A stretch of DNA of 64,000 nt from NCBI GenBank assembly GCA_965200265.1, contig OZ241357.1:8179-72178 (forward strand), in the 5' to 3' direction. The position numbers and the translations under genes were made by a program. Origin of the DNA: Alphaproteobacteria bacterium. Lineage in GTDB: Bacteria > Pseudomonadota > Alphaproteobacteria > UBA2966. Positions 24,578-53,092 of this stretch are shown piece by piece (within the stretch, counting starts at the first letter, position 1; the number at the start of each line of letters is the position of its first letter). The notes beneath the pieces are model-generated. The model was not told the origin of the DNA. It was given only the letters and a program-made list of their open reading frames with translations, and ran no database searches.

Positions 24578-24899
24578 GTGTGCAAGGTGTGCAATTCGGC
24601 GCGCTCGTGGTGGCCGGTGGCCGGTGGTCAGTGGCCGGTAGGCGGTGCCCCCACCGTGTGTAAGGTGTGCCATTCGACGCGCCGAACTCGTGCCCCCCAT
24701 GCGGTGTGCAAGGTGTGCAAGTCGCCACGCCGGGCCGCAACCGGCGACTGGCCACCGGCCATAGTGTGCAAGGTGTGCCATTCCGGGTGCGGCCCGGACT
24801 TCCGCGGGATGCGCTCCACGGTGTGCAAGGTGTGCAATACCAGCGCGCCGAACCCCCAACTGGCAACCGGCCACCGGCCATAGTGTGCAAGGTGTGCAA
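24578..24899 (+). repeat. array of six direct 17-nt repeats GTGTGCAAGGTGTGC(A/C)A
   Basis: Copies start at 24578, 24656 (one mismatch), 24704, 24764, 24821 and 24883. Spacing is 78/48/60/57/62 nt and all copies share one orientation. Spacers alternately carry GGCCACCGGCC heptamer-type sequence. Confidence 0.85.
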
Positions 24900-29207: not shown

Positions 29208-29341
29208 ACGCCCCGCCCGGACGGGGGGCCGCCGGCGTCCGCGGAGCGGCGTTGCCAATCCCGGAGCGATGGTGTCCAATTCAAGGCGCGGCGCGGGTTG
29301 CGGGGAGCCGCCGCTTTCGAGAGGAACAGGGAGGGAGGACG

Positions 29342-30394
29342 ATGAGCAACTGGACCAGGAAGGGCGTGTCCCGCCGGGACGCCCTGAAGACCACCGGGGC
29401 CGCGGCGGCGGCCGGCGCGGTCGTCACCGGCTTTCCGGCGCTCGTGCGCTCGGCGCAGCAGAAGAAGTTCCTGAAGCCGATCGTCGCCGGCCTCAACGGC
29501 CGGCCCGGGGACCCGTCCTACGTATCGGTCTCCGAGGTGCCGCGGATACTGGCCGAGAAATACGACATCGAGGTCAAGTTCGAGGTCCATCACTCCTCGA
29601 CCCTGGGCACCGACCTGTCCCAGCTCGAGGCGGTGCAGACCGGCTTCATCGACGTCACCAGCAACGTGACGGCGCAGTTCTCGAAGTTCGACGATTCGTT
29701 CGCGTTCGTCGACCTGCCGTACATCGTCACCAGCTGGGACCAGTATCTCCGGGTCGCCAGGAGCGACGCCTGGAAGCGGCAGGCGGCGAAGTTCGAGAAG
29801 AAGGTGCCGGTGAAGGTGCTGCCGCCGGTCGGTGCCGGGGGCTACCGGCTGCTGTGGAACAACGTGCGTCCGCTGCCGGACCCGGGCGCCGTGCAGGGCC
29901 TCAAGTTCCGCACCGTCACGTCGCCGATCGCGATCGAGCTGATGAAGGCGTGGGGCGGCAATCCGACGTCGATGCCGTGGACGGAGACGTACACGGCCCT
30001 TCAGCAGAAGGTCGTGCAGGGCTTCCACGTGCAGCCGATCTGGACCTACAAGTTCAACATGTACGAAGTGCTCAAGTACGCGACGGAGGTGAAGGCCATC
30101 TTCGGAATCCAGTTCCAGGTCATGAACGTCAACACCTGGAACGCGATCCCCGAGGACATCCAGGGACCCATGATGATGGCGTTTCAGGAGGCCGCCGATC
30201 TCGGCAACGCCGCCGACCGCGATTCCGAGGACGGCTTCAAGGACAGGCTCCGCGAGAAGGGGATGGAGATCTACACGCCCTCGGCCAGGGAATACGCGGA
30301 ATGGCGTTCGCGGGGCGAAGGCATATGGGAGAAGGTCGGCGTCGGTTCGAGCATCGACAAGGGCCTGGTCGACGCCGTCGTCGAGATGGGCTGA
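29342..30394 (+). CDS. TRAP-type substrate-binding protein (DctP family) with Tat signal; no adjacent DctQM
   Basis: Inner start MSNWTRKGVSRRDALKTTGAAAAAGA (twin-arginine motif) after GGGAGGGAGGA in ORF 29252..30394. Confidence 0.8.
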   Translation: MSNWTRKGVSRRDALKTTGAAAAAGAVVTGFPALVRSAQQKKFLKPIVAGLNGRPGDPSYVSVSEVPRILAEKYDIEVKFEVHHSSTLGTDLSQLEAVQTGFIDVTSNVTAQFSKFDDSFAFVDLPYIVTSWDQYLRVARSDAWKRQAAKFEKKVPVKVLPPVGAGGYRLLWNNVRPLPDPGAVQGLKFRTVTSPIAIELMKAWGGNPTSMPWTETYTALQQKVVQGFHVQPIWTYKFNMYEVLKYATEVKAIFGIQFQVMNVNTWNAIPEDIQGPMMMAFQEAADLGNAADRDSEDGFKDRLREKGMEIYTPSAREYAEWRSRGEGIWEKVGVGSSIDKGLVDAVVEMG

Positions 30395-30399
30395 TCCGC

Positions 30400-33300
30400 A
30401 TGGCCGTGTCGGAGCGCGCGCGGGTCCTGGCCGGCGGGCTGGCCCTCGCGTTCTTCCTCGCGGGCGGCGGCGGCGAGGCTGCCGCACAGAGCGCCGTGTG
30501 CAGCAGCACGCCCGCAACGGGCCAGAGAATCGACTGCCGCGAGGGCTCCGGCAGCGCCGCCGACATCCGCATCGACACGACCAACGTCGTCATCCCGGCG
30601 ACCGCCACGCACGCGATCTATGCGCGCCATTCGGGCTCGGGCGGCATCGACGTCGACGTGTCGGGCGGCTCCCTCACGACCACGGGCGAGCGGGACTACG
30701 CCGTCATCGGCTGGCACTCGGGCCCGAGCGGCGACGTCGACATCGGCCTGAAGGACGTCGTCGCGAGGACGAGCAACGCCGACTCCCACGCCGTGGTCGG
30801 CTACGGCCAGGGCGGGATGCGCGCCGTCCGGATCGACGTTCGGGGCGGCTCCTTCACCACGGAGGGCAGCGGCGCCGGCTCCCATGCCGTCGTCGCCTGG
30901 CAGACGGGCTCCGGCGACATCGACATCGACGTGCGGGACGCCGCCATCGAGACGCAAGGCCGCAACTCGATCGGCGTCTTCGGCTATCGCACGGGCACGG
31001 GTGCTTCGGGGAACGTCGACGTCGACGTCCGGGGCGGCTCCGTCGCCTCGAAAGGCCTCGGCCTCTACGGCATCCACGCCTGGGCCCGCAACTCCGACGG
31101 CGCCGGGGACGTCGGGATGAACGTGGCGGGCGCCGTCGTGACGATGGAGCGGCGGCTCGCCAGCGCCGTCTTCGCGGAGAACGCGGGGACGGGCGACCTC
31201 GCCGTCACGGTGTCGAACGGCGCGATTCTCAGGGCGGACGGCGAGAGGAGCATCGGCGTCCGTGCCGTTCACGGCGGGAACGGCGGCATCGCCGTCGACG
31301 TATCGGGCAAGACCGTCGTTGCGGTGGAAGGCGGGGACAGCGCCGGCGTCCACGCCTATCACTCGGCGTCCAGGGCCGTCGCCAACGAGGACACCACCGT
31401 CGACATGACGATCGGCGCCGGCGTGCGGATCGACGCGCCGTTCGCCTCCGGCGTCCAGGGGCGGCTGGGCGGCTCGAACACGGCGGGCGTCGCCATCTCG
31501 CACCAGGGCGCCATCCGGGCGCGGGATACGGGCATTCTCGCCTGGGCCTCGCTCTCCAGCGGCATCGAAATCCTGCGGCTGGCCGACCACGAGGGCAGGA
31601 GGGAACCGATGGTCCACGTCACGTCGAGCGGAGACGTGACGGTGGGCGCGGGCGTGATGGACGCCTGGGTCCGCGAGGTCGTGACGGGCGACGACGGGAC
31701 GCTCTCGGCAGGCGAGCAGGCGGTCCTCGGCGCCGTCGAGGCGGAGGATTCGGAGGCGCTGGATACGGCGCTCGCGGCGCTTCCCGCCGCCTATACGGAC
31801 CGCTGGAAGGCGCGCGTGCGAGGCTTTCTGAGCGCGCGCGGCCTGAGCATGACGGACAAGTCGCAGGCGGTGACGATGACGGCCGAGGAAAGGGCGGCGG
31901 ATCGGGCGACGTTCGAGATTCTGGGGATTCCCCGGGCGGGCATCCGCGCCATGGTGATGGACCACGAGAGGATCTCCGGCTACATCCGGGTGTCCGACCA
32001 GGACCCGGCGATCCTGGCCATCGACGCGGCGTCCCGCACGCCGGAGCAGCAGGCGGCGTTGCAGGCGCAGAGGGCGCTCTCGGCCGCCGAGCGGCGGGTG
32101 CTGGAGGCCTCCCTGCTGGGCGGCGACCTGGAAGCGGCGCTGGCGGCGCTTCCCGCGGATTATACGGAGGACGAGAAGACCGGGATCCGGCTGCGCGCGA
32201 CGTACTACAACGAGGGCGACGTCCGCGTGGACGTGACCGGCGGCATGATCGTCTCCGAGGGCGACGGCGTTCATGCGCGCTACATCCTGACGAATGACAG
32301 GAACGGCGCCATTGCCGTGACCGTCGCCGATGGGGCGACCGTCACGGGCGGGCGCAACGGCATCTACGTCGGCAGCGCCGGCGCCGCGGAGGAGGGGAAC
32401 TTCCGCGCCCAGAGCGTGACCGTGAACGGCGCGGTGACGGGCGGGACCGGCGCCGGCGTGCACATGGCCGGCGGCGGCAGGCTCACCGTCGGCAGGACCG
32501 GGCGCATCGGCGCGACGTCGGGCGTCGGCGTGCTCTCCGACGGTGCGGGCGACCTCCATGCGACGGTGGCCGGGCGGGTCGAGGGCGACGTCCGCATGGC
32601 GGGCACGGGCGCGCTGACGCTGGCGGTGCCGGAAGGCGGCGTCGTCACCGGCACGGTGCGCGACCCTGTCGGCCCACTGACGGTGGCGGGCAGCATCGGG
32701 CGGCTGCTCTACACCGACGGCGCCACGGTGACGGTGGCCGCGACGGGCGCGCTCACCGGCGTCAAGGTCGACGGCAGGACCGAGGCGCTGCGCGCCGAGG
32801 CCGGCGACCTGGACGTGACCGTGGCCGGACGGGTGGCGGGCGACCTGCGCGCACCGCGCGGCGGCACGCTGAAACTTTCGGTGCCGGCAGGCGGCGCCGT
32901 CACCGGGACGGTCCGCGACCCGGTCGGCCTGCCGACGGTGACGGGCAGTATCGGGCGGCTGCTCTACAGCGGCGGGGCCACGGTGACGGTGGCCGCGACG
33001 GGTGCGCTCACCGGCGTCGAGGCCGGCGGCAGGATCGAGGCGCTGCGCAGCGAAGCCGGCAACCTGGACGTGACCGTGGCCGGCATGGTGACGGGCGACG
33101 TCCTGGGCCGTGGCGACGGCGATCACACGGTGACGGTGGCGCGCGGCGGGACGGTGACGGGCGACATCCACCTTGCGGCGAGCACGGTGCGGGTGGCGGG
33201 CACCGTCGGCCGGGTGCGCTTCGACAACGGCGGCACGGTGACGGTCGGCAGGACCGGCCGGCTCACCGGGATCGAAGGGGTTGCCATCCGCAACGCGGGC

Positions 33301-34680
33301 GGCGTTCTGCGCGTGACGTCGGCCGGCAGGATCGAGGGGAATGTCGTCGATGTCGGCGAACGCCCCGCGGCCGTCACGGTGGAAGCCGGCGGCACGGTGA
33401 CGGGAAGCATCGACTTGTCCGCCGAGGGCAGCGCGGTGACGGTGGACGGAACGGCCGGTCGCGTGCTGCTGGATCGCGGCGGCACGGTGGCGATCGGCGA
33501 GGCCGGCCGCGTGACGGGCGTCGATGGCGAGACCATCCGCAGCGCCAGCGGCGAACTGGTGGTGTCGTTCCGGCAGGCTGCCGGCGAGACGGTCTCCCGG
33601 GCTGTCGGGCGGGTGCAAGGCCGCATCGAGGAGGTCGGCGGGACGCCGCAGGTGCTGTTCCAGCGGGCCGGCGAGCAGGAGGCCATGCCGTTGGGCGGCG
33701 CGCCCGGCAGCGCGGCGTCGGCGCCTGTGGGTGCCTATGACGTGGGCGTGGTGGCCGATGGCGACGGCGTGCGGGTGGAGCGCGCCTTTGCGCCGCGGGC
33801 GCGGGTGTACGAGGCGCTGCCGTCGGTGCTGCTGGGCCTGAACGGGACGCTGGGGTTCCATGACCGGATGGCGGCGCCGCGCTCGCCGAACGGGGTGTGG
33901 GCGCGTATCGAGGCGGCGGGCGGTTCGCGCGAGACGGAGCGGTCGACGTCGACATCGGGGGCCGGGCTGTCGTGGGCCGAGCGCCGCTACGGGGCGGAGA
34001 CGGGCGTCGACTTTCCGCTGGAGGCGGGCGTGGTCGGCCTGTCGGCGCACCACCGCCGCGCCTCGGCGGAGGTGTCGGGGAACGACGGCGGGATCGACGT
34101 TGCGGGGAACGGCCTGGGGGCGTCGATGGCGTGGCGGTTGTCCGACGGCGCGTACATGGCCGGCGAGGTATCGGCGACGTGGTACGACGTGGCCTTGGAG
34201 TCCGGGCGTCGCGGGTCGCTGAAGTCGGGCGTCGGCGCTTTCAGCCATGCGGTTGGCGTGGAGGTGGGCCGCCGGGTCGATCTGGGTTCGGGTCCGCTGG
34301 GGGCGTTGACGGCGACGCCGCGTGCGCGGCTGTCGTATTCGCGTGTGGGCATGGACGCCTTCACGGACGCGGTGGACGCGCGCGTGTCGCTGGACAAGGG
34401 CCGGGCCGCAACGGGGGTTGCGGGTGTCGCGCTGGAGGCGTCGGAGGGGAGGAGCCGCATGTTCGGTTCGGTGGACGTGGAGCACGGGTTCTCTCGGGAG
34501 ACGGTGGTGGAGGTGTCGAAGGTGGCGCTGTCGTCGCAGTCGGAGGCGACGCGTGCGCGGTTCGAGGTCGGCGGTTCGGTCGAATGGGGCGGCGGCCGGT
34601 ACGCGCTGCAAGGGGCGGCGCGCTGGGCGACGGGCGCGCGCGACTACGGCGGCGGGCTGACCCTGAACGCGCGCTTCTGA
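30400..34680 (+). CDS. autotransporter outer-membrane protein (1,426 aa)
   Basis: Inner start MAVSERARVLAGGLALAFFLAGGGGEAAA (signal peptide) in ORF 29269..34680. Gly/Val/Thr-rich beta-helical passenger with repeats. C-terminal beta-barrel with alternating hydrophobic strands ending ...GGGLTLNARF. Confidence 0.87.
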   Translation: MAVSERARVLAGGLALAFFLAGGGGEAAAQSAVCSSTPATGQRIDCREGSGSAADIRIDTTNVVIPATATHAIYARHSGSGGIDVDVSGGSLTTTGERDYAVIGWHSGPSGDVDIGLKDVVARTSNADSHAVVGYGQGGMRAVRIDVRGGSFTTEGSGAGSHAVVAWQTGSGDIDIDVRDAAIETQGRNSIGVFGYRTGTGASGNVDVDVRGGSVASKGLGLYGIHAWARNSDGAGDVGMNVAGAVVTMERRLASAVFAENAGTGDLAVTVSNGAILRADGERSIGVRAVHGGNGGIAVDVSGKTVVAVEGGDSAGVHAYHSASRAVANEDTTVDMTIGAGVRIDAPFASGVQGRLGGSNTAGVAISHQGAIRARDTGILAWASLSSGIEILRLADHEGRREPMVHVTSSGDVTVGAGVMDAWVREVVTGDDGTLSAGEQAVLGAVEAEDSEALDTALAALPAAYTDRWKARVRGFLSARGLSMTDKSQAVTMTAEERAADRATFEILGIPRAGIRAMVMDHERISGYIRVSDQDPAILAIDAASRTPEQQAALQAQRALSAAERRVLEASLLGGDLEAALAALPADYTEDEKTGIRLRATYYNEGDVRVDVTGGMIVSEGDGVHARYILTNDRNGAIAVTVADGATVTGGRNGIYVGSAGAAEEGNFRAQSVTVNGAVTGGTGAGVHMAGGGRLTVGRTGRIGATSGVGVLSDGAGDLHATVAGRVEGDVRMAGTGALTLAVPEGGVVTGTVRDPVGPLTVAGSIGRLLYTDGATVTVAATGALTGVKVDGRTEALRAEAGDLDVTVAGRVAGDLRAPRGGTLKLSVPAGGAVTGTVRDPVGLPTVTGSIGRLLYSGGATVTVAATGALTGVEAGGRIEALRSEAGNLDVTVAGMVTGDVLGRGDGDHTVTVARGGTVTGDIHLAASTVRVAGTVGRVRFDNGGTVTVGRTGRLTGIEGVAIRNAGGVLRVTSAGRIEGNVVDVGERPAAVTVEAGGTVTGSIDLSAEGSAVTVDGTAGRVLLDRGGTVAIGEAGRVTGVDGETIRSASGELVVSFRQAAGETVSRAVGRVQGRIEEVGGTPQVLFQRAGEQEAMPLGGAPGSAASAPVGAYDVGVVADGDGVRVERAFAPRARVYEALPSVLLGLNGTLGFHDRMAAPRSPNGVWARIEAAGGSRETERSTSTSGAGLSWAERRYGAETGVDFPLEAGVVGLSAHHRRASAEVSGNDGGIDVAGNGLGASMAWRLSDGAYMAGEVSATWYDVALESGRRGSLKSGVGAFSHAVGVEVGRRVDLGSGPLGALTATPRARLSYSRVGMDAFTDAVDARVSLDKGRAATGVAGVALEASEGRSRMFGSVDVEHGFSRETVVEVSKVALSSQSEATRARFEVGGSVEWGGGRYALQGAARWATGARDYGGGLTLNARF
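32566..33075 (+). repeat. 2 x 255-bp in-frame tandem duplication inside the autotransporter passenger
   Basis: Units begin GTGGCCGG at 32566 and 32821; the next GTGGCCGG is at 33076. The encoded 85-aa units (VAGRV.GD...TGTVRDPVG...GSIGRLLY..GATVTVAATGALTGV...LDVT) are highly similar. Confidence 0.8.
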
Positions 34681-34822
34681 ACCGGCGGCAGGCGGCGGCA
34701 ACCGCTGCCCGGAAACCCGCCGGGACACGGACCGGACGGGTCCGTCCCGGTTCATATACGTGCGAGACGTGGCCGGGTCGGATTTTGACCTTGCGGCGTC
34801 GTTTGCGGCGTGTTACAGAATA

Positions 34823-34873
34823 ACGAACATACCCCCCCCCCCCCCGTAGCGGGGGGGGGGGGGGTATGTTCGT
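34823..34873. repeat. perfect hairpin ACGAACATA-C14-GTAGC-G14-TATGTTCGT (23-bp stem)
   Basis: Read directly: C14 at 34832-34845 and G14 at 34851-34864, flanked by 9-bp complementary arms. Lies between the autotransporter stop and the lipoprotein start. Confidence 0.95.
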
Positions 34874-34898
34874 ATCTGGCGGAAGTCTGGAGGTTCTC

Positions 34899-37136
34899 AT
34901 GGCCGCATCGAAGCATTTCCCCGTCCTTGTCTGCGCCGCGCTGCTGGCGCTCGGCGCCTGCACCAACACCAAGCACGTGCGCACCGGCGACGAGGAGGCG
35001 CTCAAGACCGAGAGGGGTAAGACAGCGGCCGCGACGCAGAGGGCCGAGGCGGCCGAGAAGGCGCTGACCGATCTCCACGCTTCGCTGGCGGCGGCCAATA
35101 CGGCGCTCGGTGCGCTACAGAGGGACAACACCAGCCAGCAGCGCGATGCGGCCCGCACGGCGGTGGGCACTGCCCAAAGGACTCTGCGGCAGGTCCAGGA
35201 GGATCTGGCGGATCAGCCCGCGAGCGACGCCAGGACGGCGGCCGAGGCGGCGCTGACGGCGGTCGATACGGCGCTGGCGCGGACCGCCGAGGCGCTGGCG
35301 GCGGCCAACGGGTCGCTGGCGTCCGGGGGGGGGCCGGTGGCGCTGGCGAACATGCACACGACGCTGGACCGGGCGCAGACGGCCGTGGACGACGCGCAGG
35401 TCGAACTGAAGACGGCGCTGGCGGCGGAGGGCCTCACCACGGAGCTCCGCACCGTGCTGTCGCAGGCCCAGGGCACGCTGACCACGGCCCAGGTCTCGCT
35501 GATCCCCCTGCTGCGCCAAGAGCTGGCTAAGTTGAGGGACGAGCACGTCTCTCCGCCGCTCTTCCGGAGCACCGCCGGCCCGAAGGACCTCGGGGCGACG
35601 ATCACGATCACCCGGACGGCCCGGACCGTCCCGAACACCGCGACCGACCCCGATACGTGGATCAGGAATACGGACGCGCTCGCCATCGCGACGGACGCCG
35701 TCCCCTACGCCGCCGGCAGGACGCTGACCTCCCGCGCCGGCAACGAGGAGTTCCCCATGCGGGCGATCACCTTCCGGGGCGACATACGCCAGGGAAGCCA
35801 GCGGGGGAAAACCGGCGCCGACGCCAACAACGACGGGCGCTATCCGATCATCCAGGGACCCGGCAACACGCTGGGCAACGCCAACGACCACACCAAGAAC
35901 GCGGTGATCAGCTCGATCCAGTTCTCGGAAGCCGGGGGGCTGATCCTCAAGGCCGGGGGATCGGGCGTCGTCTTCAACGAGTTTCAGTGGGACATCCGCG
36001 GGACCGAAGGCGACGGCCCGGACGGCATCCCGGGCGATAGCGGCGCGACGACGAGCACCGCGGCGACGGCCTACCACGCCGCCATGTTCCGCCGGGCCGG
36101 GGAGACGGCGCCCACGGTCGGCGCCACGTTGACGCAGGCCCAGGCCGACAAGCTGACCGGGTGGGCGGCCGACAACTGCTCCGGCGTGACCTTCCCCTGC
36201 TGGGACGGCAACATGCGCGACCTGACGATCGACTTCGGGACGCCTTCCCCGGATCCGGACGGCGAATCCGGCTATCACTGGGCGTCGAAGATTCCGTCGT
36301 CCACGGACCAGCCCAAACCCGCCGACGGCGACGCCATGCACCGCTGGGCCAAGTCCAAGGTCGACAACTTCGTCGACCCCGAGCGCGGGAACGGCGAACA
36401 CCGGGGCGAATACCGGGTGTGGCTCTCGAACTATGCCGGCCTGGACACCGGCGCGACGGATGCGGCAACCGACGATTCCCACCGCTATCTGCAATACGCC
36501 GCCTACGGCCTGTTCACGTTCACCGACTACCTCACCTCGAACGTCAGGCCGGGCCGTATGCAGGGGTTCCATTTCGGCTACGACGCCTTCGCCGGCGCCG
36601 CCGGGATGAGGACGACCGATCTCGACAACCCGATCGAGGCCACGTTCACGGGCAGGGCCTCCGGGATGGTCATGGAGCCCCACAGCGACAGGTCCCAGGT
36701 CGAACGCCTGATCCGGGTGCGGGGGGACGTCACGCTCAACGCGACGATCGGCGGCGCCAACACCATCACCGGCGCGATCTCCAACTTCGAGACGCCGGCC
36801 GGCGGCGGGTGGGGACCCTACGTGCCGCTGAGAGACGAAGTCCGGTTGACGGGCGGAACGATCGCGGCCGACGGCAGCTACGAGGGCGATGCCGACGTGG
36901 AAGGCGACTCGGGCCATCTCTGGGACCCCGGCAGCTTCGGCGGAAACCTCTACGGCGACAGGGGCGGCCCCGGCCTCGAAACCGCGGGCTGGTGGTATCT
37001 GACGGCGCGGGGATACACCCCCGACGCCCGCAACCTGACCGGGAGTGCTGCCCAGAACGATCCCCGCCGGCCGGACTTCAGGTACTCGGGCGCTTTCGGC
37101 AGCTTCGGCGCCCAGTGCACCGAAGGCTGCGAGTGA
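34899..37136 (+). CDS. surface lipoprotein with long helical N-terminal region and TbpB/fHbp-like C-terminal beta-barrel domain
   Basis: Inner start MAASKHFPVLVCAALLALGAC (lipobox LGAC) 5 nt after GGAGG in ORF 34866..37136. Ala/Gln/Thr-rich helical segment. C-terminal pattern YLQYAAYGLFTF...FHFGYDAF...ATFTGRASGMV...GDVTLNATIGG.NTITGAISNF...FGGNLYG...ETAGWW...GAFGSFGAQ resembles transferrin-binding-protein-B-type barrels. Confidence 0.7.
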   Translation: MAASKHFPVLVCAALLALGACTNTKHVRTGDEEALKTERGKTAAATQRAEAAEKALTDLHASLAAANTALGALQRDNTSQQRDAARTAVGTAQRTLRQVQEDLADQPASDARTAAEAALTAVDTALARTAEALAAANGSLASGGGPVALANMHTTLDRAQTAVDDAQVELKTALAAEGLTTELRTVLSQAQGTLTTAQVSLIPLLRQELAKLRDEHVSPPLFRSTAGPKDLGATITITRTARTVPNTATDPDTWIRNTDALAIATDAVPYAAGRTLTSRAGNEEFPMRAITFRGDIRQGSQRGKTGADANNDGRYPIIQGPGNTLGNANDHTKNAVISSIQFSEAGGLILKAGGSGVVFNEFQWDIRGTEGDGPDGIPGDSGATTSTAATAYHAAMFRRAGETAPTVGATLTQAQADKLTGWAADNCSGVTFPCWDGNMRDLTIDFGTPSPDPDGESGYHWASKIPSSTDQPKPADGDAMHRWAKSKVDNFVDPERGNGEHRGEYRVWLSNYAGLDTGATDAATDDSHRYLQYAAYGLFTFTDYLTSNVRPGRMQGFHFGYDAFAGAAGMRTTDLDNPIEATFTGRASGMVMEPHSDRSQVERLIRVRGDVTLNATIGGANTITGAISNFETPAGGGWGPYVPLRDEVRLTGGTIAADGSYEGDADVEGDSGHLWDPGSFGGNLYGDRGGPGLETAGWWYLTARGYTPDARNLTGSAAQNDPRRPDFRYSGAFGSFGAQCTEGCE

Positions 37137-37311
37137 GGCCGCAGGCGGGACCCGGCGAACCCCGGCGCGGCGGGGCGGACGGGAAGCGCCGGCGAGGGCG
37201 CCGCAACCGCCCCACGCCGGGCGCCCGCCCGAGGGCCGCGCCCCCGCGCACCCCGGCAGGATCGCGCGGGTGCGACGCCTTTCCCCCCGGCTCGTATGTA
37301 CCGAATGGGGA

Positions 37312-37493
37312 GGTGGTGTCTCAGTTTGAAATTCCTGCTTGTTCGTGGTTTTCAGTGGCCGGTGGCCGGTGATCGGTACTGGCAACTGGCCACTGGCCAC
37401 TGGCCACTGGTCACTGGTCACTGGCCGATGGTGCTCCCAAGGATATGCCGGATAGCTCACCCAGCGGGCCATATTTCAAACTGAGACACTACC
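37312..37493 (+). mobile_element. MITE-like element copy A (182 bp)
   Basis: TIRs GGTGGTGTCTCAGTTTGAAAT (37312-37332) and its complement at 37473-37493 (20/21 match). Flanked by direct AATGGGGA at 37304-37311 and 37494-37501. Internal run of about 8 CACTGG(C/T) heptamers. Confidence 0.65.
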
Positions 37494-37573
37494 AATGGGG
37501 ACGGCAGGTAGACGCGGGCGGGAATAAGAGGGAGGATGCCGGTCCGCCATACCGGCGGAGACAGGATCGCGCG

Positions 37574-39220
37574 ATGACCGCTCAGGGAGGAGGCAGCCTG
37601 GCCGAGCAGCTGGCGTCGGTGCTGCCGCGCCTGCACGGCGCCCGCGCGCCGGCGCCCAGGCGGCCGGCGTGCCGGGTGACGCTGCACGTCCCCGCGGACG
37701 ATCTCGACGGCGCGTTCGGCGAGGTGCGGAACGAGGTGCTGCGCTGGATGCAGGATCGCGCCGGGCGGCGTCTGCCGGCGGAGGCATGGCGCGGCGAGGG
37801 GTTCGAACTCGCCGGGGCCAATCCCCTCCGCGCCGAAACGGCGCCGGCGCGGGATGCCGACCGCTGGACGGCGCGGCTGGACGAGGCCGACGGCGACGCG
37901 CCGGACCGCTTGTGGACGACCGAAGCCGGGATCGCCAGGGACGGGGAGGCGATAGGCGTGCAGGTGCGGCTCGGCTGCGCGGCGCGGAGAGAGAACCCGC
38001 CCGCCCGGTCCGTTCCCGGCCTCGTCCGGTGGATCGTGGACCGGTTCGGCGTCGTCGCCGACGGTCGGCCGATCGGCGCCGGGCCCTGGCTCGTCAATAC
38101 GCCGGAACGGGCGGAGAAGCTTCTCGCGCTGCTCTGCGACCCGGAGCGCGAGCAGGACGTGCTGGCCATCGCGACGCATGATCGTGGCGACGACCCCTCG
38201 ACCGTGCTGGTCTCGCCGCGGTCCGTCTTCGAACGCACGCTGGGCGCGGCCCACGTCGCCGTCGTCACGACGTCGGCCACCTTCGCCCTGACCGATCGGT
38301 TCGGCAAGGAACTGTCCGTATTCCGCCAGGCGGTGCGGACCTACAGGCCCGGCTTCGACCCCCGCCGGGCGGAGCCTTACGACCACCCGCTCGCCGTCGG
38401 GACGCGCATATCCGCCTGGGACGGCGGGCCGGAAGCCTTCGAAGACTTCCTCGTCGCCGACTGCCTGCGCGCCACCGTCGGCGCCGCGGACGGCGAGGGG
38501 CGTGCGCCCCTCCCCTTCGCCGCGAGGCGGACCGCCCCGGCATTGCCGCGCGCGTCCGTCCTTCCGGCCGCCCTCTCGGGGGACGAAGGGCCGGACGCGC
38601 TGCGGCGGGAAAACGAGGAGCTCAGGGCCGAGAACCTGAAGCTGGCGGAAGCTCTGAGCAAGGAGCGCAGCGCCGCCGCCGCCGCGCGGAAGGAGGTCAG
38701 GAGCCTCAAGGACCGGGTGGCCCATCTCGAACGCACGCGCGGCAATGCGCCGGCGCACCCCGGCGGGCCGTCCGTTCCGGACAGCTTCGGGGAGCTCGAG
38801 CACTGGTCGAAGGAGCATCTGGACGGCAGGGTCCGGCTGCATCCGCGGGCGATCGGGGCGGCGAAGAAGTCGGCGTTCGAGGACGTGGCGCTCGCCTATC
38901 GCGCCTTGCTGATCCTGCGCGACCGCTACGTCCCGATGCGCCTGGAGGGCGGCAACGACAGGCGAACCGCATACCAGGAGGCGCTGTCCGGGGAGGGGCT
39001 CAGGGAGGAGCGGACGTTCGCCGGGGCGCGGGCGGGGGAGCACGGCGACGCCTACTTCATCCGCCACGGCGGGCGCCGGCGGGAGCTCGAACGGCACCTG
39101 AAGGGCAGCAACGCCCGCGACGAACGCCGCGGGTTCCGCCTCTACTTCTTCTGGGACGAGAGCGACCGGGAGGTCGTCGTCGGCTGGCTGCCCACCCACC
39201 TGCCGACGCGGCTCAGCTGA
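37574..39220 (+). CDS. hypothetical protein (548 aa), central coiled coil, no recognisable catalytic motif
   Basis: Inner start MTAQGGGSLAEQL in ORF 37445..39220; the track start lies inside the MITE. Coiled-coil stretch ENEELRAENLKLAEALSKERSAAAAARKEVRSLKDRVAHLE. C-terminus RGFRLYFFWDESDREVVVGWLPTHL recalls the last strands of RelE/ParE-fold proteins (weak). Confidence 0.65.
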   Translation: MTAQGGGSLAEQLASVLPRLHGARAPAPRRPACRVTLHVPADDLDGAFGEVRNEVLRWMQDRAGRRLPAEAWRGEGFELAGANPLRAETAPARDADRWTARLDEADGDAPDRLWTTEAGIARDGEAIGVQVRLGCAARRENPPARSVPGLVRWIVDRFGVVADGRPIGAGPWLVNTPERAEKLLALLCDPEREQDVLAIATHDRGDDPSTVLVSPRSVFERTLGAAHVAVVTTSATFALTDRFGKELSVFRQAVRTYRPGFDPRRAEPYDHPLAVGTRISAWDGGPEAFEDFLVADCLRATVGAADGEGRAPLPFAARRTAPALPRASVLPAALSGDEGPDALRRENEELRAENLKLAEALSKERSAAAAARKEVRSLKDRVAHLERTRGNAPAHPGGPSVPDSFGELEHWSKEHLDGRVRLHPRAIGAAKKSAFEDVALAYRALLILRDRYVPMRLEGGNDRRTAYQEALSGEGLREERTFAGARAGEHGDAYFIRHGGRRRELERHLKGSNARDERRGFRLYFFWDESDREVVVGWLPTHLPTRLS

Positions 39221-39409
39221 TCGCCGGGGCCGCGGCGGGAACTGCTCGCACCCGGGATCGACCCGGCGGTCGTTCTCGCCCCGGCTGTGCAGAAACAACA
39301 CCTTCCGGCCTCATCAGGCACTCGACGGACATACTCCCGCCGAATACCTTCAATCACTGACGGCGAAAGAGACTCCCGCGTCTCATATGTCGTGAATCAG
39401 AACATGCAC

Positions 39410-39437
39410 TTGCAAATGACCGACCTTGCTGTACAGT
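39410..39437 (+). promoter_or_regulatory. candidate promoter of the phd-vapC pair
   Basis: TTGCAA (39410-39415), 16-nt spacer, TACAGT (39432-39437), about 60 nt upstream of the antitoxin ATG. Confidence 0.3.
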
Positions 39438-39495
39438 CGTCCGGGAAACGGCGGGGAGCCGATCTCGCCGATCGCCGCCGACAAGGATACCGGTC

Positions 39496-39777
39496 ATGCC
39501 GCCCGCGACATACGAGGTCACGGAAGCCCGCGCTCACTTCTCGGAGCTTCTGGCGCGGGCCCGAGCCGGCGAGGAGATCGTCATCACCAAGGGCCACGAG
39601 CCCCATGCCCGGCTCCTGCCGCCGGCCGGGCGCGGGGAGCGGGAGAGTGTGCCGCTGGAACATCTCCACCTGCCGGACGACCTCTTCGACGGCGACGATC
39701 CGGAACAGGCCGCGATCGATGCCGGCGACCGCAACGATGCCCTCGGCATCTGGCGCGGCCGCGCGGCCGCTTCGTGA
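39496..39777 (+). CDS. type II antitoxin, Phd/YefM family
   Basis: ORF 39496..39777. N-terminus TYEVTEARAHFSELLARARAGEEIVITKGHEPHARLLP is typical of the family. Its stop overlaps the toxin start (GTGA). Confidence 0.82.
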   Translation: MPPATYEVTEARAHFSELLARARAGEEIVITKGHEPHARLLPPAGRGERESVPLEHLHLPDDLFDGDDPEQAAIDAGDRNDALGIWRGRAAAS

Positions 39778-40151
39778 GACTGCTTCTCGACAGCCATGCC
39801 GTCTATTGGTGGATGACGGGTGACACCCGGCTGTCCGCGATCACCCGGGAACTGATCCTCGACGGCGCGAACACCGTTTTGGTCAGCGCGGTTTCGATCT
39901 ACGAGATCGAGCTCAAGGCCGGACGCAGGCGCGTGAACCTGCCGCCCCAGGAACTGCGGGCGGCGCTCAGGCGCAACGCCGTCGAGGAACTGGCCATCAC
40001 CCACGACCATGCGGAGTATGCCGCCCATCTCGCCTGGGCGCATCGCGATCCGTGGGACCGTCTGCTGGCTGCCCAGGCCCTTCTGGAGAACTGTGTCCTC
40101 GTATCCGTCGACAAGGTTTTCGACGGCATCCCCATCGACCGGCGTTGGTGA
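39774..40151 (+). CDS. vapC: type II toxin, VapC family PIN-domain ribonuclease
   Basis: GTG start within ORF 39426..40151. Acidic PIN residues lie in LLLDSHA, SIYEIELK and HRDPWDRLLAAQA. Confidence 0.85.
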   Translation: MRLLLDSHAVYWWMTGDTRLSAITRELILDGANTVLVSAVSIYEIELKAGRRRVNLPPQELRAALRRNAVEELAITHDHAEYAAHLAWAHRDPWDRLLAAQALLENCVLVSVDKVFDGIPIDRRW

Positions 40152-40356
40152 ACCCGGTTGCAATCGCCTGCCCGGCCTGTGCATGAGCCTGCGGTGACGA
40201 GACACCGTGAATCGGACCGGGAACATCCTCGCCGGGAACTCGAACGGCCCCGTGAATGGAGCAAGGAACCGTCGAGCACGAACGAACGCCGTCCGCGTTC
40301 ATGCACGTGCGAGACACGGCCGGCCCGCCCGGTGTCTCGTACGTACCGCACCGGGA

Positions 40357-40517
40357 GGTGGTGTCTCAGTTTGAAATTTCTGCTTGTTCGTGGTTTTCAG
40401 TGGCCGGTGATCGGTGCTGGCCACTGGTCACTGGCCACTGGTCACTGGCCGTCGGCGCTCCCAAGGATATGCCAGATAGCTCACCCGGCGCGCCATATTT
40501 CAAACTGAGGCACTACC
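40357..40517 (+). mobile_element. MITE-like element copy B (161 bp)
   Basis: Same TIRs (40357-40377 and 40497-40517, 19/21 match). Flanked by direct GCACCGGGA at 40348-40356 and 40518-40526. It is 21 bp (three heptamers) shorter than copy A. Same orientation as copy A. Confidence 0.65.
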
Positions 40518-40631
40518 GCACCGGGACGGGCATTTCACACCGCCCGGCGTCGGCGGTATAATCGCGTTCGCACGACCGCGCCGTCGGTGTCGCCGGAGGC
40601 CGGTCGGGGGCGCGAAGGGAGCCGGGAACGC

Positions 40632-47032: not shown

Positions 47033-47125
47033 TGTTTTCAGTGGCCGGTGCTGGCAACTGGCCACCGGCCACCGGCCACCGGCAGCCGGCCACTGGTCAC
47101 CGGCGCTCCCAGGGACATGCCGGAA
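47033..47125 (+). repeat. TIR-less relic of the MITE-like family
   Basis: GTTTTCAGTGGCCGGTG..CTGGCAACTGGCCACCGGCCACCGGCC...GGCGCTCCCAGGGACATGCCGGA is colinear with the interior of copies A and B. The TCAGTTTGAAAT ends are missing. Confidence 0.6.
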
Positions 47126-49929: not shown

Positions 49930-50012
49930 GAGTGGCTGGTTGCCGGTTGCCGGTGGTCAGTGCCCCCCGCGCGCACTGACCACTGGCCACCGACCACCGG
50001 CCACCGGCCGCG
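49930..50012. repeat. heptamer-tract relic plus 9-bp-stem hairpin overlapping the glcF 3' end
   Basis: GCTGGTT GCCGGTT GCCGGTG heptamers, then hairpin GGTCAGTGC-n9-GCACTGACC (49954-49980), then CACTGGC CACCGAC CACCGGC CACCGGC. The last about 20 glcF codons (PVAGGRWPVVSARGGH) are read from this sequence. Confidence 0.6.
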
Positions 50013-51391: not shown

Positions 51392-53092
51392 TTGGGCGCA
51401 CATGCATCCGGCGGCCCATACGTGGAGAACGGCCCTCATGGCTCGACGAAGCCCCTCCGTTTCCGGCCCGGTCGCCGCGCACCGCGCGAGGCCGCGTTCG
51501 TGAACGCGCTGCACGCCGTCCTCAAACGGGTACGGGCGCGACTCGTGCTCATAATCCTCGTCGCGCTGCTGATCGGTCTGCTCGTGGTCTTCGTATGGGT
51601 CGGAGTTTTCGACCCGGCATGGGTCCATCGCTTCTTCTTCGGCGAGGTGAAGGACGCGGAGAAGTCTCGAATCCTGGAACTCATCGGCGTCGGCATGGGC
51701 GGCGTGCTGCTCGCCATCGGGGCGACGATCGCCAATCGCCGCGCCGTGGCGATGGAGGTGACCAACCGGGGCGCGGAGGACGGGCGGCGGCAGGAGCGGC
51801 TGAAGAACGCCATCGAGCATCTGGGCTACAAGTCGGACTCGGTGCGCCTGGGCGGGGCCTACGAACTCTTCCATCTGGCGCGGGATACCAAAGACCTGCG
51901 CCAGACGGTTATGGACATCCTCTGCGCCCACATCCGCCGGACAACGGGGGAGGACGGGTATCGGGAGACGTACAAGGAGAAGCCTTCGACGGAGGTGCAG
52001 AGCCTGCTGACTCTGTTGTTCAGACAGGAGCATGAAGTCTTCACGGGCCGCCGCATCGACTTGCAGGGAAGCTGGCTGAACGGGGCCATGCTCGAACGGG
52101 CGCGACTGCAACGGGCGGAACTTTCTGGAGCATATCTGCAAGGGGCGATCCTTCACGGGGCGGAACTGCAAGAGGCGATCCTTCACGGGGCGGAACTACA
52201 AGGGGCGAGCCTTCACGAAGCGCAACTGCAAGAGGCGTACCTTCACGAAGCGCAATTGCAAGGAGCGGACCTTCACATGGCGCAACTGCAAGGGGCGACC
52301 CTTCACGAAACGCAACTGCAAGGGGCGCAACTGCAACGAGCGAACCTTCACGGGGCGGAACTGCAAGAAGCGAACCTTCACGGGGCGGAACTGAAAGGAG
52401 CGAACCTTCACGGGGCGCAACTGCAAAGAGCGAACCTTCTCGAAGCGCAACTGCAAGGAGTGAACCTTCACGTGGCGCAACTGCAAGGAGCGTACCTTTA
52501 CGAAGCGCAACTGCAAGGGGCGGACCTTCACGGGGCGGAACTGCAAGGAGCGGATCTTCATGCGGTGCAACTACAAGGAATGAACCTTCACGGGGCGGAA
52601 CTGCAAGGAGCGAACCTTCACGCGGCGGAACTGCAAGGAGCGAACCTTCACGCGGTGGAACTACAAGGGGCGAACCTTCTCGAAGCGCGACTGCAAGGGG
52701 CGAACCTTCACGCGGTTCAACTGCAAGGAGCAAACCTTCACAAAGCGCAACTGCAAGAAGCGAACCTTCACGCGGCGCATCTGCAAGGGGTTACTTGCCA
52801 GGATAGCAGTCGTATATCGTTCAAGGGGCGTATCCGCGAAGGGATCGGCCGAGAGAACGACCTGTCAAAGGTGACGTTCGCGGGCGGGTTGAGTCAGGAA
52901 GACGTGGATTCTCTCGTTCAGGATTTGCCCGGCGAAAAAGCGAAAAAGTTGCGGGAGAAACTGGAACCGCATGTCGACAAGGAGGCGAGCAACGAATTGC
53001 CGGAAGGCAGAGGCGCCATTGTCGAGGCCTATACGGTGGAAGAAGCCGAGCGGTGGATCGCCGAATATGCGGAAGCGACGGGTGAAGCCTAA
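51392..53092 (+). CDS. membrane-anchored pentapeptide-repeat protein, paralog 1
   Basis: ORF 51392..53092; GTG 51500 (VNALHAVLKR) is a plausible alternative start. Two TM helices (LVLIILVALLIGLLVVFVWVGVF and ILELIGVGMGGVLLAIGATIA), then a helical module LKNAIEHLGYKSDSVRLGGAYELFHLA. About 48 consecutive A(N/D)L..-type pentapeptides follow, then a conserved tail AYTVEEAERWIAEYAEATGEA. Confidence 0.8.
   Translation: MGAHASGGPYVENGPHGSTKPLRFRPGRRAPREAAFVNALHAVLKRVRARLVLIILVALLIGLLVVFVWVGVFDPAWVHRFFFGEVKDAEKSRILELIGVGMGGVLLAIGATIANRRAVAMEVTNRGAEDGRRQERLKNAIEHLGYKSDSVRLGGAYELFHLARDTKDLRQTVMDILCAHIRRTTGEDGYRETYKEKPSTEVQSLLTLLFRQEHEVFTGRRIDLQGSWLNGAMLERARLQRAELSGAYLQGAILHGAELQEAILHGAELQGASLHEAQLQEAYLHEAQLQGADLHMAQLQGATLHETQLQGAQLQRANLHGAELQEANLHGAELKGANLHGAQLQRANLLEAQLQGVNLHVAQLQGAYLYEAQLQGADLHGAELQGADLHAVQLQGMNLHGAELQGANLHAAELQGANLHAVELQGANLLEARLQGANLHAVQLQGANLHKAQLQEANLHAAHLQGVTCQDSSRISFKGRIREGIGRENDLSKVTFAGGLSQEDVDSLVQDLPGEKAKKLREKLEPHVDKEASNELPEGRGAIVEAYTVEEAERWIAEYAEATGEA
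52076..52790 (+). repeat. about 24 tandem 30-bp units encoding the pentapeptide solenoid
   Basis: Near-identical units such as CTTCACGGGGCGGAACTGCAAGGAGCGAAC recur throughout, producing the mirror-image antisense ORFs 52041..52733 and 52196..52570. Confidence 0.85.

What the first reader, a model, noticed from the sequence alone, without database searches (positions are those of the whole stretch)
37304..40526. Two same-orientation MITE-like elements bracket a 2.86-kb module
Each element has 21-bp terminal inverted repeats (GGTrGTGTCTCAGTTTGAAAT). Each is flanked by a copy-specific direct duplication: AATGGGGA for copy A and GCACCGGGA for copy B. The interiors are colinear and differ by exactly three CACTGG(C/T) heptamers. 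No transposase is present in the window. The pair encloses one unknown gene plus a Phd/VapC addiction module, a layout reminiscent of a composite, non-autonomous transposable unit. Caveat: about 45 nt to the left of both copies is also loosely similar (GTGCGA.GAC...CCGG..CTCGTAyGTACC), and a related ACGTGCGAGACGTGGCCGG occurs at 34751-34781. So the element may be longer than the TIRs, or it may target a REP-like sequence, and the target-site-duplication reading is tentative.
Basis: seen in the sequence. Interest (0 to 1): 0.65.

Follow-up and report, generated by a model that had tools for sequence, protein, structure and literature searches.

The report
Two IS1-family MITEs, independently inserted
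Two small non-autonomous transposons derived from an IS1-type insertion sequence landed separately on either side of a candidate phage-defence gene and a toxin-antitoxin pair in a sponge-associated bacterium; this is ordinary mobile-DNA litter, and the evidence is against a composite transposon that moved as one piece.

Summary
Copy A (37312-37493) and copy B (40357-40517) each have 21-bp terminal inverted repeats and a copy-specific flanking duplication (8 bp AATGGGGA; 9 bp GCACCGGGA).

- **Family.** The same repeat ends 2.0-4.8 kb elements in many phyla. Those elements encode an IS1-type DDE transposase and mostly have exact 8-bp duplications. The transposase's last codons (ISN-stop) lie inside the repeat. 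The copies here keep a frameshifted remnant of that coding end, so they are IS1-family MITEs.
- **Copy number.** In sponge and marine metagenomes the unit is roughly 15-30 times deeper than its flanks. Its boundaries sit exactly at the repeat ends, and the flanks differ between copies.
- **Polymorphism.** Contigs in three listed runs (two look like near-duplicates) carry the VapC-to-oxidoreductase junction precisely without copy B (170 nt missing, one GCACCGGGA). That junction therefore predates copy B.
- **Composite reading not supported.** The outer flanks do not match. The "unknown gene" is HEC-07, a candidate phage-defence gene, and its relatives occur elsewhere without these elements.
- **Unexplained.** An identical 13-mer abuts the duplication on the left of both copies.

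Verdict: a new member of a known kind, of modest interest.

The parts
37312..37493 (+). MITE copy A, 182 bp. Terminal inverted repeats at 37312-37332 and 37473-37493. No coding capacity for a transposase.
   Evidence: In 4 runs metagenome depth steps up at bin 37311-23 and down at bin 37493-505. Loose ends fall at 37312 and 37493.
37304..37311 (.). Left copy of the 8-bp target-site duplication AATGGGGA of copy A. The right copy is at 37494-37501.
   Evidence: An 8-bp duplication is the family norm.
37494..37501 (.). Right copy of the target-site duplication AATGGGGA of copy A.
37378..37426 (+). Heptamer array (ACTGGCC/ACTGGTC, 7 copies) inside copy A. Its length varies between strains.
   Evidence: In L119 copy A is 175 nt against 182 nt here.
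37421..37484 (+). Frameshifted remnant of the transposase 3' coding end (LADGAPKDMPDSSPSGPY, then ISN-stop inside the repeat). It orients the element.
   Evidence: Family transposases end ...APKP..KRGPYKKRISN*, with ISN* encoded in the repeat.
40357..40517 (+). MITE copy B, 161 bp, same orientation as A. Terminal inverted repeats at 40357-40377 and 40497-40517. Heptamer array at 40417-40450.
   Evidence: It is absent precisely in contigs of runs X6, X7 and X8.
40348..40356 (.). Left copy of the 9-bp target-site duplication GCACCGGGA of copy B. The right copy is at 40518-40526.
   Evidence: The empty allele skips 170 nt = 161 + 9 and keeps one copy.
40518..40526 (.). Right copy of the target-site duplication GCACCGGGA of copy B.
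37291..37303 (+). 13-mer CTCGTATGTACCG directly left of the duplication of copy A. It is target DNA, not part of the element.
   Evidence: It lies outside the repeated unit.
40336..40348 (+). 13-mer CTCGTACGTACCG left of copy B. It ends at the first base of the 9-bp duplication, which is directly before it if the duplication is read as 8 bp. It forms the right arm of a 12-bp-stem hairpin at 40305-40344.
   Evidence: The empty-site contig covers this stretch and no differing letters are listed there, so it appears to predate copy B.
37574..39220 (+). 548-aa gene: HEC-07 candidate phage-defence protein with a RelE-like C-terminus. The segment 37502-39239 is homologous to a gene embedded in ICE-like islands of relatives.
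   Evidence: PADLOC HEC-07, E 2.3e-151, full length. Domain description from bioRxiv 10.1101/2024.01.29.577857. Genomic contexts.
39297..39395 (+). Probable remnant of the 3' end of an rve-type (IS3/IS481-like) transposase gene (NTFRPHQALDGHTPAEYL...*). It marks the right edge of the island-derived fragment.
   Evidence: translation; rve_3 positions 54-67, E 0.012, below cut-off; 11/16 identity to an IS3-like OrfB.
39496..40151 (+). Type II toxin-antitoxin pair: Phd/YefM antitoxin (39496-39777) and PIN/VapC toxin (39774-40151), with a 4-nt overlap.
   Evidence: Pfam PF02604 and PF01850. TIGR01552.
40534..40562 (+). Promoter-like site TTCACA-17-TATAAT of the 2-oxoacid:ferredoxin oxidoreductase operon. 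It lies 8 nt right of copy B's duplication, so the insertion left it intact.
   Evidence: The sequence is conserved in relatives that lack the MITE.

Best explanation
Copies A and B are two members of a multi-copy family of miniature inverted-repeat elements. The family derives by internal deletion from a single-ORF, IS1-family insertion sequence.

Each copy was inserted on its own by a transposase supplied in trans. That enzyme would be a DDE enzyme of the IS1 type that binds the 21-bp ends and makes a staggered 8- or 9-bp cut, which gives the flanking duplication.

The DNA between the copies is a patchwork that was already there:
- a fragment of an ICE-like island carrying the HEC-07 candidate defence gene;
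- a weak remnant of another insertion sequence;
- a Phd/VapC addiction module.

The pair did not arrive as a composite transposon.

**Shown:** element boundaries, duplications, multi-copy status, insertion polymorphism of copy B, and the family link to IS1-type transposases.

**Inferred:** mobilisation in trans, and the existence of an autonomous partner in this organism.

Two direct copies 2.9 kb apart could still mediate deletion or excision of the module by homologous recombination. In principle the outer ends could also be used together by a transposase.
For: **Link to IS1-type transposases**
- The 21-bp repeat pattern hit more than 118 loci in Acidobacteriota, Bacteroidota, Chloroflexota, Pseudomonadota, Planctomycetota and others.
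- 48 of those loci encode a roughly 295-aa transposase. Examples are L051 1965-2852 and L015 4866-5780.
- That transposase matches Pfam DDE_Tnp_IS1 at 35.5 bits, above the 24.1 cut-off.
- PGAP names its 60-64% identical homologues 'IS1 family transposase'.
- An ISAba3-like IS1-family element described in PMC6382973 has the repeat GGTGGTGTTTCA... and 8-bp duplications.

**Duplications and derivation**
- Of 51 repeat pairs in the loci, 34 have exact 8-bp duplications. These include transposase-less elements of 101-940 bp.
- Transposases end ...KRGPYKKRISN*, with ISN-stop inside the repeat. The right ends of A and B keep a frameshifted APK..GPY remnant of that coding end.

**Boundaries and copy number**
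- Depth over 37312-37493 is about 15-30 times that of the flanks in four runs, with steps exactly at the repeat ends.
- Loose ends fall at 37312 (7, 6 and 3 contigs) and at 37493 (4, 4 and 4 contigs), with only 0.5-0.6 agreement between the flanking sequences.

**Empty site of copy B**
- Contigs in X6, X7 and X8 join 40343 to 40514. They skip 170 nt, and 13 nt fit either side.
- X7 record 14 covers 40150-40343 and 40514-700 contiguously.

**Relatives**
- A 98% identical relative (L119) has both copies at the same sites but with different heptamer counts.
- HEC-07 homologues lie without MITEs in another context (L120) and inside ICE-like islands (L121-123).
Against: - No autonomous element with these ends was found in the window, and none could be linked to this organism.
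- No empty site was found for copy A.
- The identical 13-mer next to both duplications is not predicted by random, independent insertion.
- Two copies within 3.2 kb is more than the roughly 0.2-0.4 per 64 kb expected from the estimated copy number.
- The transposase family scores below NCBIfam's IS1 equivalog cut-off (66 against 100 bits). It is therefore a distant IS1 subgroup.
Confidence: 0.87

Rival explanations
1. **Composite non-autonomous transposon.** A transposase acted on the left end of A and the right end of B and moved the 3.2-kb unit (HEC-07 plus Phd/VapC) to this site as one piece.
For: - Two same-orientation copies bracket accessory genes.
- The 3,206-bp span lies within the 2.0-4.8 kb range of cargo-carrying full-length relatives.
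- The cargo of those relatives is rich in toxin-antitoxin and defence-type genes.
- MITE-bounded composite-like structures are described in Acinetobacter (PMC6382973).
Against: - Each copy has its own perfect duplication, and the outer flanks differ (AATGGGGA against GCACCGGGA).
- The VapC-to-oxidoreductase junction exists without copy B in natural populations.
- The HEC-07 segment occurs elsewhere without MITEs or the toxin-antitoxin pair.
- No second locus carrying the unit was seen.
Confidence: 0.04
2. **REP/BIME-type intergenic repeat.** The units are not transposed. They spread or persist by recombination or by a RAYT-type enzyme, and the flanking repeats are coincidental.
For: - The units are intergenic, multi-copy and carry internal short tandem repeats.
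- Related heptamer arrays occur outside the elements.
Against: - Both copies have exact 8- and 9-bp direct duplications.
- The empty allele retains exactly one duplication copy.
- The ends are identical to those of transposase-bearing elements, which carry 8-bp duplications across phyla.
- A remnant of the transposase coding end lies inside the units.
Confidence: 0.02
3. **Sequence-directed insertion (an addition to the main model, not an alternative).** The element is guided to a site a fixed distance 3' of a motif (CTCGTAYGTACCG, or a hairpin, or an end-like GGTGTCTC). That would explain why both copies sit at the same offset from it.
For: - The 13-mer is identical at the same offset: P about 8e-6.
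- It appears to predate copy B: the empty-site contig covers it and no differences are listed there.
- B-left contains GGTGTCTC, which equals repeat positions 4-11, and a 12-bp-stem hairpin.
- In run X14 another copy lies 15 nt from a GTTCATGCACGTGCGAGAC-type sequence.
Against: - The flanks of other copies in the metagenomes show no conserved consensus; agreement is about 0.5.
- Twenty-two oriented full-length relatives show no flank motif.
- The hairpin is absent at A-left and in L119's B-left.
- Only two sites support the idea.
Confidence: 0.25

Closest known systems
IS1 family insertion sequences, single-ORF type (e.g. ISAba3), and their MITE derivatives
   Same: - The ends begin GGTGGTG / GGTAGTG. 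Eleven of the first 12 nt match the ISAba3-like repeat given in PMC6382973.
- Duplications are 8-9 bp.
- Full-length relatives encode a DDE transposase that matches Pfam DDE_Tnp_IS1 and is named IS1 family by PGAP.
   Different: - The transposase is a distant subgroup, below the NCBIfam IS1 equivalog cut-off.
- Full-length relatives are 2.0-4.8 kb and carry cargo genes.
- The transposase stop codon lies inside the terminal repeat.
- The MITE carries a hypervariable heptamer array.
Transporter IS (tIS): IS derivatives carrying passenger genes
   Same: Full-length elements with these ends carry 1-4 kb of passenger genes between the repeats. This category is described in PMC9330008.
   Different: The window holds only two transposase-less miniatures. 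The genes between them lie outside each element, not inside one.
MITE-bounded composite-like structures in Acinetobacter (MITE-flanked integrons; MITE-297 pair on pA297-3)
   Same: Two copies of a MITE bracket accessory genes (PMC6382973).
   Different: Here each copy has its own duplication and the unit lacks one. One junction also exists without its MITE. The bracket is therefore incidental.
IS that target REP/BIME palindromes (IS1397, ISKpn1; from my own knowledge)
   Same: Both insertions sit at a fixed distance from a shared short motif, and at copy B that motif is the arm of a hairpin.
   Different: The motif is low-copy: two exact copies in 64 kb. The hairpin is not conserved. Other copies do not share the flank. 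Those IS belong to other families.

Membership tests
IS1-family-derived MITE | Terminal inverted repeats of IS1 type (ends GGnnnTG, from ISfinder as I recall it) | tested here: met
   The ends are GGTGGTG / GGTAGTG. Eleven of the first 12 nt match the ISAba3-like repeat quoted in PMC6382973.
IS1-family-derived MITE | Direct target-site duplication of 8-9 bp | tested here: met
   8 bp at copy A and 9 bp at copy B. 34 of 51 family repeat pairs have an exact 8-bp duplication. The empty allele keeps one copy.
IS1-family-derived MITE | Autonomous elements with the same ends encode an IS1-type DDE transposase | tested here: met
   Pfam PF03400 scores 35.5 bits against a cut-off of 24.1. PGAP names homologues 'IS1 family transposase'. 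48 of 118 loci hold the gene.
IS1-family-derived MITE | Transposase reaches the curated NCBIfam IS1 equivalog score | tested here: not met
   NF033558 scores 66 and 59 bits against a cut-off of 100. This is a divergent subgroup rather than canonical IS1.
IS1-family-derived MITE | Small, no transposase, with internal sequence traceable to the parent element | tested here: met
   The copies are 182 and 161 bp. No transposase is in the window. A remnant of the transposase 3' coding end lies at the right end.
IS1-family-derived MITE | Multi-copy with unrelated flanks, and insertion polymorphism | tested here: met
   Depth is 15-30 times the flanks, and loose ends fall at 37312 and 37493 with about 0.5 agreement. 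Copy B is precisely absent in X6, X7 and X8.
IS1-family-derived MITE | A cognate autonomous element in the same genome that mobilises it in trans | not testable with these tools
   Only 64 kb of this genome is available. None of the fetched loci is from the same species.
Composite (compound) transposon | One target-site duplication flanking the whole unit | tested here: not met
   The sequence left of A is AATGGGGA and that right of B is GCACCGGGA. Each copy has its own pair.
Composite (compound) transposon | The unit is present or absent as a whole, or is found at another locus | tested here: not met
   The VapC-to-oxidoreductase junction is present without copy B. HEC-07 occurs elsewhere without MITEs or the toxin-antitoxin pair.
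HEC-07 candidate defence system (PADLOC) | Full-length match to the HEC-07 profile | tested here: met
   PDLC04161, E 2.3e-151, protein residues 27-548 on profile positions 19-553 of 553.
HEC-07 candidate defence system (PADLOC) | Embedded in or next to an Hma-type helicase/methylase system | tested here: inconclusive
   Homologues 78-80% identical lie near a 1503-1508-aa AAA_34/Helicase_C_4 gene in L121-123. No such gene was noted beside the window's copy, but only ORFs at 17-51 kb were scanned for domains. Whether those neighbours are Hma was not tested.
HEC-07 candidate defence system (PADLOC) | Protection against phage | not testable with these tools
   The parts of the preprint that I read describe its domains but do not state its result.
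Type II toxin-antitoxin, Phd/YefM-VapC | Small antitoxin gene directly upstream of and overlapping a PIN-domain toxin gene | tested here: met
   PF02604 and TIGR01552 match on 39496-39777. PF01850 matches on 39774-40151. The genes overlap by 4 nt.

The most novel reading that the evidence does not exclude
The ends seen here may belong to a pan-phylum clade of cargo-carrying IS1-like transposons with three unusual properties:
- The terminal repeat doubles as the coding sequence for the transposase C-terminus.
- The cargo is biased towards toxin-antitoxin and defence genes.
- Insertion can be guided to an end-like motif.

On this reading, the pair of miniatures around HEC-07 plus Phd/VapC is an early stage of cargo capture: a defence cassette that the outer ends could mobilise.
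Probability: 0.1. Interest if true: 0.6.

Novelty: new member of a known kind. Interest (0 to 1): 0.3.

Why it matters
- **Annotation.** It names the ends, the size, the duplication length and the parent family of an abundant small repeat in a sponge-associated alphaproteobacterium. This repeat coincides with contig breaks in short-read assemblies of this organism: contigs start inside or at the element.
- **Method.** It shows that a bracket of two MITEs around accessory genes need not be a composite transposon. Duplication logic plus one empty-site contig settles the question.
- **Possible follow-up.** The family behind these ends is widespread across phyla and carries toxin-antitoxin and defence-type cargo. 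That may deserve its own study. The finding itself is routine.

Tried and rejected
- **Plasmid search.** blastn of copy A against PLSDB plasmids gave no match.
- **RNA families.** An Rfam scan of the window found only a tRNA, so the unit is not a known RNA family.
- **Metagenome scan.** A scan with an interior pattern (CCCAAGGATATGCCRGATAGCTCA) gave 0 hits.
- **Exact-protein look-up.** The look-up of the oxidoreductase was not on record. It was replaced by a homologue search plus context look-ups.
- **Same-species loci.** None of the 118 repeat-bearing loci is from the same species. Only L109 shares interior sequence: 76 aligned nt at 78%.
- **Element extending into the left flank.** Rejected because depth steps and loose ends fall at 37312 and the flank persists in the empty allele.
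- **A and B as a segmental duplication.** Rejected because the duplications are perfect within each copy yet differ between copies at 3 of 8 positions.
- **Campbell-type integration through one MITE.** Rejected because it predicts matching outer flanks.
- **Left flank as a conserved REP hairpin.** Only B-left folds well (z -1.9). A-left and L119's B-left do not.
- **Family-wide flank motif.** None was found in 22 oriented elements.
- **Empty site for copy A.** None was found in eight runs.
- **PDB sequence search of the 548-aa protein.** No hit.


Full report
**1. The observation**

- The 21-nt sequence GGTGGTGTCTCAGTTTGAAAT occurs four times in the window with up to 3 mismatches, and never in shuffles.
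- The four hits form two inverted pairs: 37312-32 with 37473-93, and 40357-77 with 40497-517.
- Copy A (182 bp) is flanked by AATGGGGA on both sides. Copy B (161 bp) is flanked by GCACCGGGA on both sides.
- The two interiors are colinear, 88-91% identical, and differ by one 21-nt gap inside a heptamer array.
- No family transposase is encoded in the window; the best tblastn E-value is 1.4.

**2. What the ends belong to**

These come from Acidobacteriota, Bacteroidota, Chloroflexota, Nitrospinota, Planctomycetota, alpha-, beta-, gamma- and deltaproteobacteria and a candidate-phylum bacterium.
- In 48 of the loci a roughly 295-aa protein lies next to the repeat.
- That protein matches Pfam DDE_Tnp_IS1 above its gathering score.
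- It matches NCBIfam's IS1 model best, but below that model's cut-off.
- PGAP calls its 60-64% identical plasmid homologues 'IS1 family transposase'.
- An ISAba3-like IS1-family element described in PMC6382973 has the repeat GGTGGTGTTTCA... and 8-bp duplications.
- Among 51 inverted repeat pairs in the loci, 34 are flanked by an exact 8-bp direct repeat. Several others are one mismatch away.
  - The pairs that hold the transposase are 2.0-4.8 kb long.
  - Pairs of 101-940 bp mostly lack it; only the 994-bp L046 element retains a fragment.
- The transposases end ...KRGPYKKRISN*, and the codons ATT TCA AAC TGA are part of the terminal repeat. This may help explain the repeat's extreme conservation.
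- The right ends of copies A and B still read ...APK......GPY in a shifted frame just before the repeat.
- The two copies are therefore internally deleted derivatives, that is MITEs, of a divergent single-ORF IS1-family element. Both are oriented with the former transposase 3' end to the right.

**3. The copies are mobile and multi-copy**

- The window comes from a bacterium found in sponge and marine metagenomes.
- Contigs of four runs were laid on 37220-37600.
  - Word depth rises from about 40-115 to about 950-1300 (runs X14 and X16) in the bin that starts at 37311.
  - It falls back in the bin that starts at 37493.
  - The other two runs show the same shape.
  - This is roughly 15-30 copies per genome equivalent. 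The estimate is rough, because contig word depths pool related strains.
- Contigs that continue into unrelated sequence start exactly at 37312 (7, 6 and 3 contigs) and at 37493 (4, 4 and 4 contigs). Consensus agreement there is only 0.5-0.6.
- The repeated unit is therefore the stretch from repeat to repeat, and nothing more.
- A 98% identical relative from another metagenome (L119) has both copies at the same sites with the same duplications. Copy A is one heptamer shorter there and copy B one heptamer longer, so the arrays slip.

**4. The decisive polymorphism**

- In runs X6, X7 and X8 (X7 and X8 give identical records and look like near-duplicates), a contig joins 40343 directly to 40514.
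  - It skips 170 nt, which equals 161 + 9.
  - Thirteen nt fit either side of the joint.
- In X7 one 826-nt contig covers 40150-40343 and 40514-40700 without a break. It differs from the window at 6 letters on the left part and 1 on the right part.
- This is an empty site: the end of VapC, the left-flank motif, one GCACCGGGA, and the oxidoreductase promoter.
- Three conclusions follow:
  - The flanking repeat is a real target-site duplication.
  - The left-flank motif is target DNA.
  - The junction between the toxin-antitoxin pair and the oxidoreductase operon is older than copy B.
- Copy B landed 8 nt upstream of the operon's promoter-like site TTCACA-17-TATAAT (40534-62). It left that site intact.

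**5. What lies between the copies**

- The 548-aa 'unknown' gene matches PADLOC's HEC-07 profile end to end, with E 2.3e-151.
- According to bioRxiv 10.1101/2024.01.29.577857, HEC-07 is a candidate defence protein. It has an AdoMetDC-like domain, a thioredoxin-like domain and a RelE-type RNase domain.
- Homologues 78-80% identical sit in ICE-like islands. Their neighbours include SSB, a Toprim/DUF7146 protein, a Y-family polymerase, a roughly 1500-aa AAA_34/Helicase_C_4 protein and integrases.
- Their homology to the window runs only from about 37500 to 39239.
- A 93% identical (protein level) copy, L120, sits in yet another context, followed by fdhD, and has no MITE and no toxin-antitoxin pair.
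- Shortly after 39239 the window carries a short, weak remnant of an rve-type transposase 3' end at 39297-39395.
- The Phd/VapC pair follows.
- Relatives with 94-97% identical oxidoreductase (L124-126) share sequence with the window only from 40520 rightwards. They have unrelated DNA upstream.
- More distant relatives have other upstream genes.
- The region is therefore a strain-variable patchwork of mobile-DNA debris.

**6. Why it is not a composite transposon**

- A unit moved by its outer ends would carry one duplication, with the sequence left of A equal to the sequence right of B. Those sequences differ.
- Instead, each copy has its own perfect pair.
- One inner junction predates its MITE.
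- The cargo gene is found elsewhere without the bracket.
- A segmental duplication cannot explain duplications that are perfect within copies but differ at 3 of 8 positions between copies.
- Integration by recombination through one MITE predicts matching outer flanks, which are not seen.
- What remains possible is future behaviour:
  - recombination between the two direct copies would delete or excise the module;
  - a transposase could in principle use the outer ends, as proposed for MITE-bounded structures in Acinetobacter (PMC6382973).

**7. The residue that is not explained**

- The 13-mer CTCGTAYGTACCG occurs exactly only twice in the window, at the same offset from both elements. Read with an 8-bp duplication in both, it ends directly before the duplication.
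- Anchored there it matches 12/13 (P about 8e-6) and 20/30 (P about 8e-5) against random window pairs.
- It is not part of the element.
- It appears to predate copy B: the empty-site contig covers the stretch and no differing letters are listed there.
- At B it is the right arm of a 12-bp-stem hairpin at 40305-40344, and the flank contains GGTGTCTC, which equals repeat positions 4-11.
- The hairpin is missing at A and in L119's B flank. L119's B flank carries a cluster of transitions.
- Twenty-two oriented full-length relatives show no flank motif.
- Other copies in the metagenomes have no common flank.
- In run X14 another copy lies 15 nt from a GTTCATGCACGTGCGAGAC-type sequence. A related 19-mer sits at 34758.
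- I rate sequence- or structure-guided target choice at about one in four. A closed genome would settle it.

**8. Comparison and novelty**

- The copies work like any IS-derived MITE and pass the tests for IS1-family derivation. The one failed test is the strict NCBIfam score, which places the parent in a divergent subgroup.
- The parent clade behaves as a transporter IS, a known category (PMC9330008).
- Its passengers, across 26 elements (68 ORFs scanned), include:
  - HTH plus Peptidase_M78 pairs (7);
  - P63C (4);
  - SocA/Panacea (3);
  - ClpP or SDH proteases (4);
  - MazF, HigB, GmrSD_N plus HEPN, NYN and a methylase.
- Many elements also carry a roughly 75-100-aa protein that has no Pfam match.
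- That side observation is the most interesting thing met here, but it was not the finding under review.
- The finding itself is a new member of a known kind, and its most attractive interpretation, the composite unit, is not supported.

Noticed in passing
window 34822-34873: A perfect palindrome: AACGAACATA-C14-GTAGC-G14-TATGTTCGT. The ATG (34866) of the 756-aa ORF lies in its right arm. The long homopolymer tracts look like a slipped-strand (phase-variation) switch for that gene.
   Followed up: no
window 34866-37136 compared with L119 1-1812: The 756-aa gene of unknown function is only about 90% identical between the window and a relative whose neighbouring DNA is 97-98% identical. It is a fast-evolving, possibly surface-exposed protein next to an autotransporter (29269-34680) that has 255-nt tandem repeats (32620-33269).
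   Followed up: partly
window 37276-37283: A poly-C tract just left of copy A is length-polymorphic among metagenome contigs, with insertions of 1-5 C.
   Followed up: no
window 24609-24647, 47060-47104, 49974-50009: Heptamer arrays of related units (GGTGGCC, GGCCACC, CCACCGG) occur outside the MITEs. In one run the heptamer part of the MITE has 30-50 times the depth of the rest of the element, so such arrays are very abundant in these communities.
   Followed up: partly
window 52100-52788: A long tandem array with a 15/30-nt period (about 38 copies of GGGGCGAACCTTCAC-like units). It partly overlaps a small minus-strand ORF (52196-52570).
   Followed up: no
window 39297-39395: A short reading frame, NTFRPHQALDGHTPAEYLQSLTAKETPASHMS*, resembles the last residues of rve-type (IS3/IS481) transposases. 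It scores E 0.012 on rve_3, below the cut-off, and is 11/16 identical to an IS3-like OrfB. It lies shortly after the point where homology to the ICE-like islands ends.
   Followed up: partly
loci L002-L104 (e.g. L051 1956-4129, L015 3724-5789, L034 1296-6085): Full-length IS1-like elements with these ends carry 1-4 kb of cargo rich in toxin-antitoxin and defence-type genes: HTH plus Peptidase_M78, P63C, SocA/Panacea, ClpP or SDH protease, MazF, HigB, GmrSD_N plus HEPN, NYN and a methylase. Many also carry a roughly 75-100-aa protein (..PKGPKGEKRPADVIG..GGKARA..LTPEQRSEIAKKAA.ARW) with no Pfam match.
   Followed up: partly
loci, right ends of full-length elements (e.g. L015 5769-5789): The transposase stop codon and its last three codons (ISN*) are encoded inside the 21-bp terminal repeat. 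This may help explain why the repeat is nearly invariant across phyla.
   Followed up: yes
L124 1-136, L126 1-66: Relatives with 94-97% identical oxidoreductase have unrelated sequence upstream of position 40520. Their contigs end 66-136 nt further upstream. The region upstream of this operon is a strain-variable spot.
   Followed up: partly
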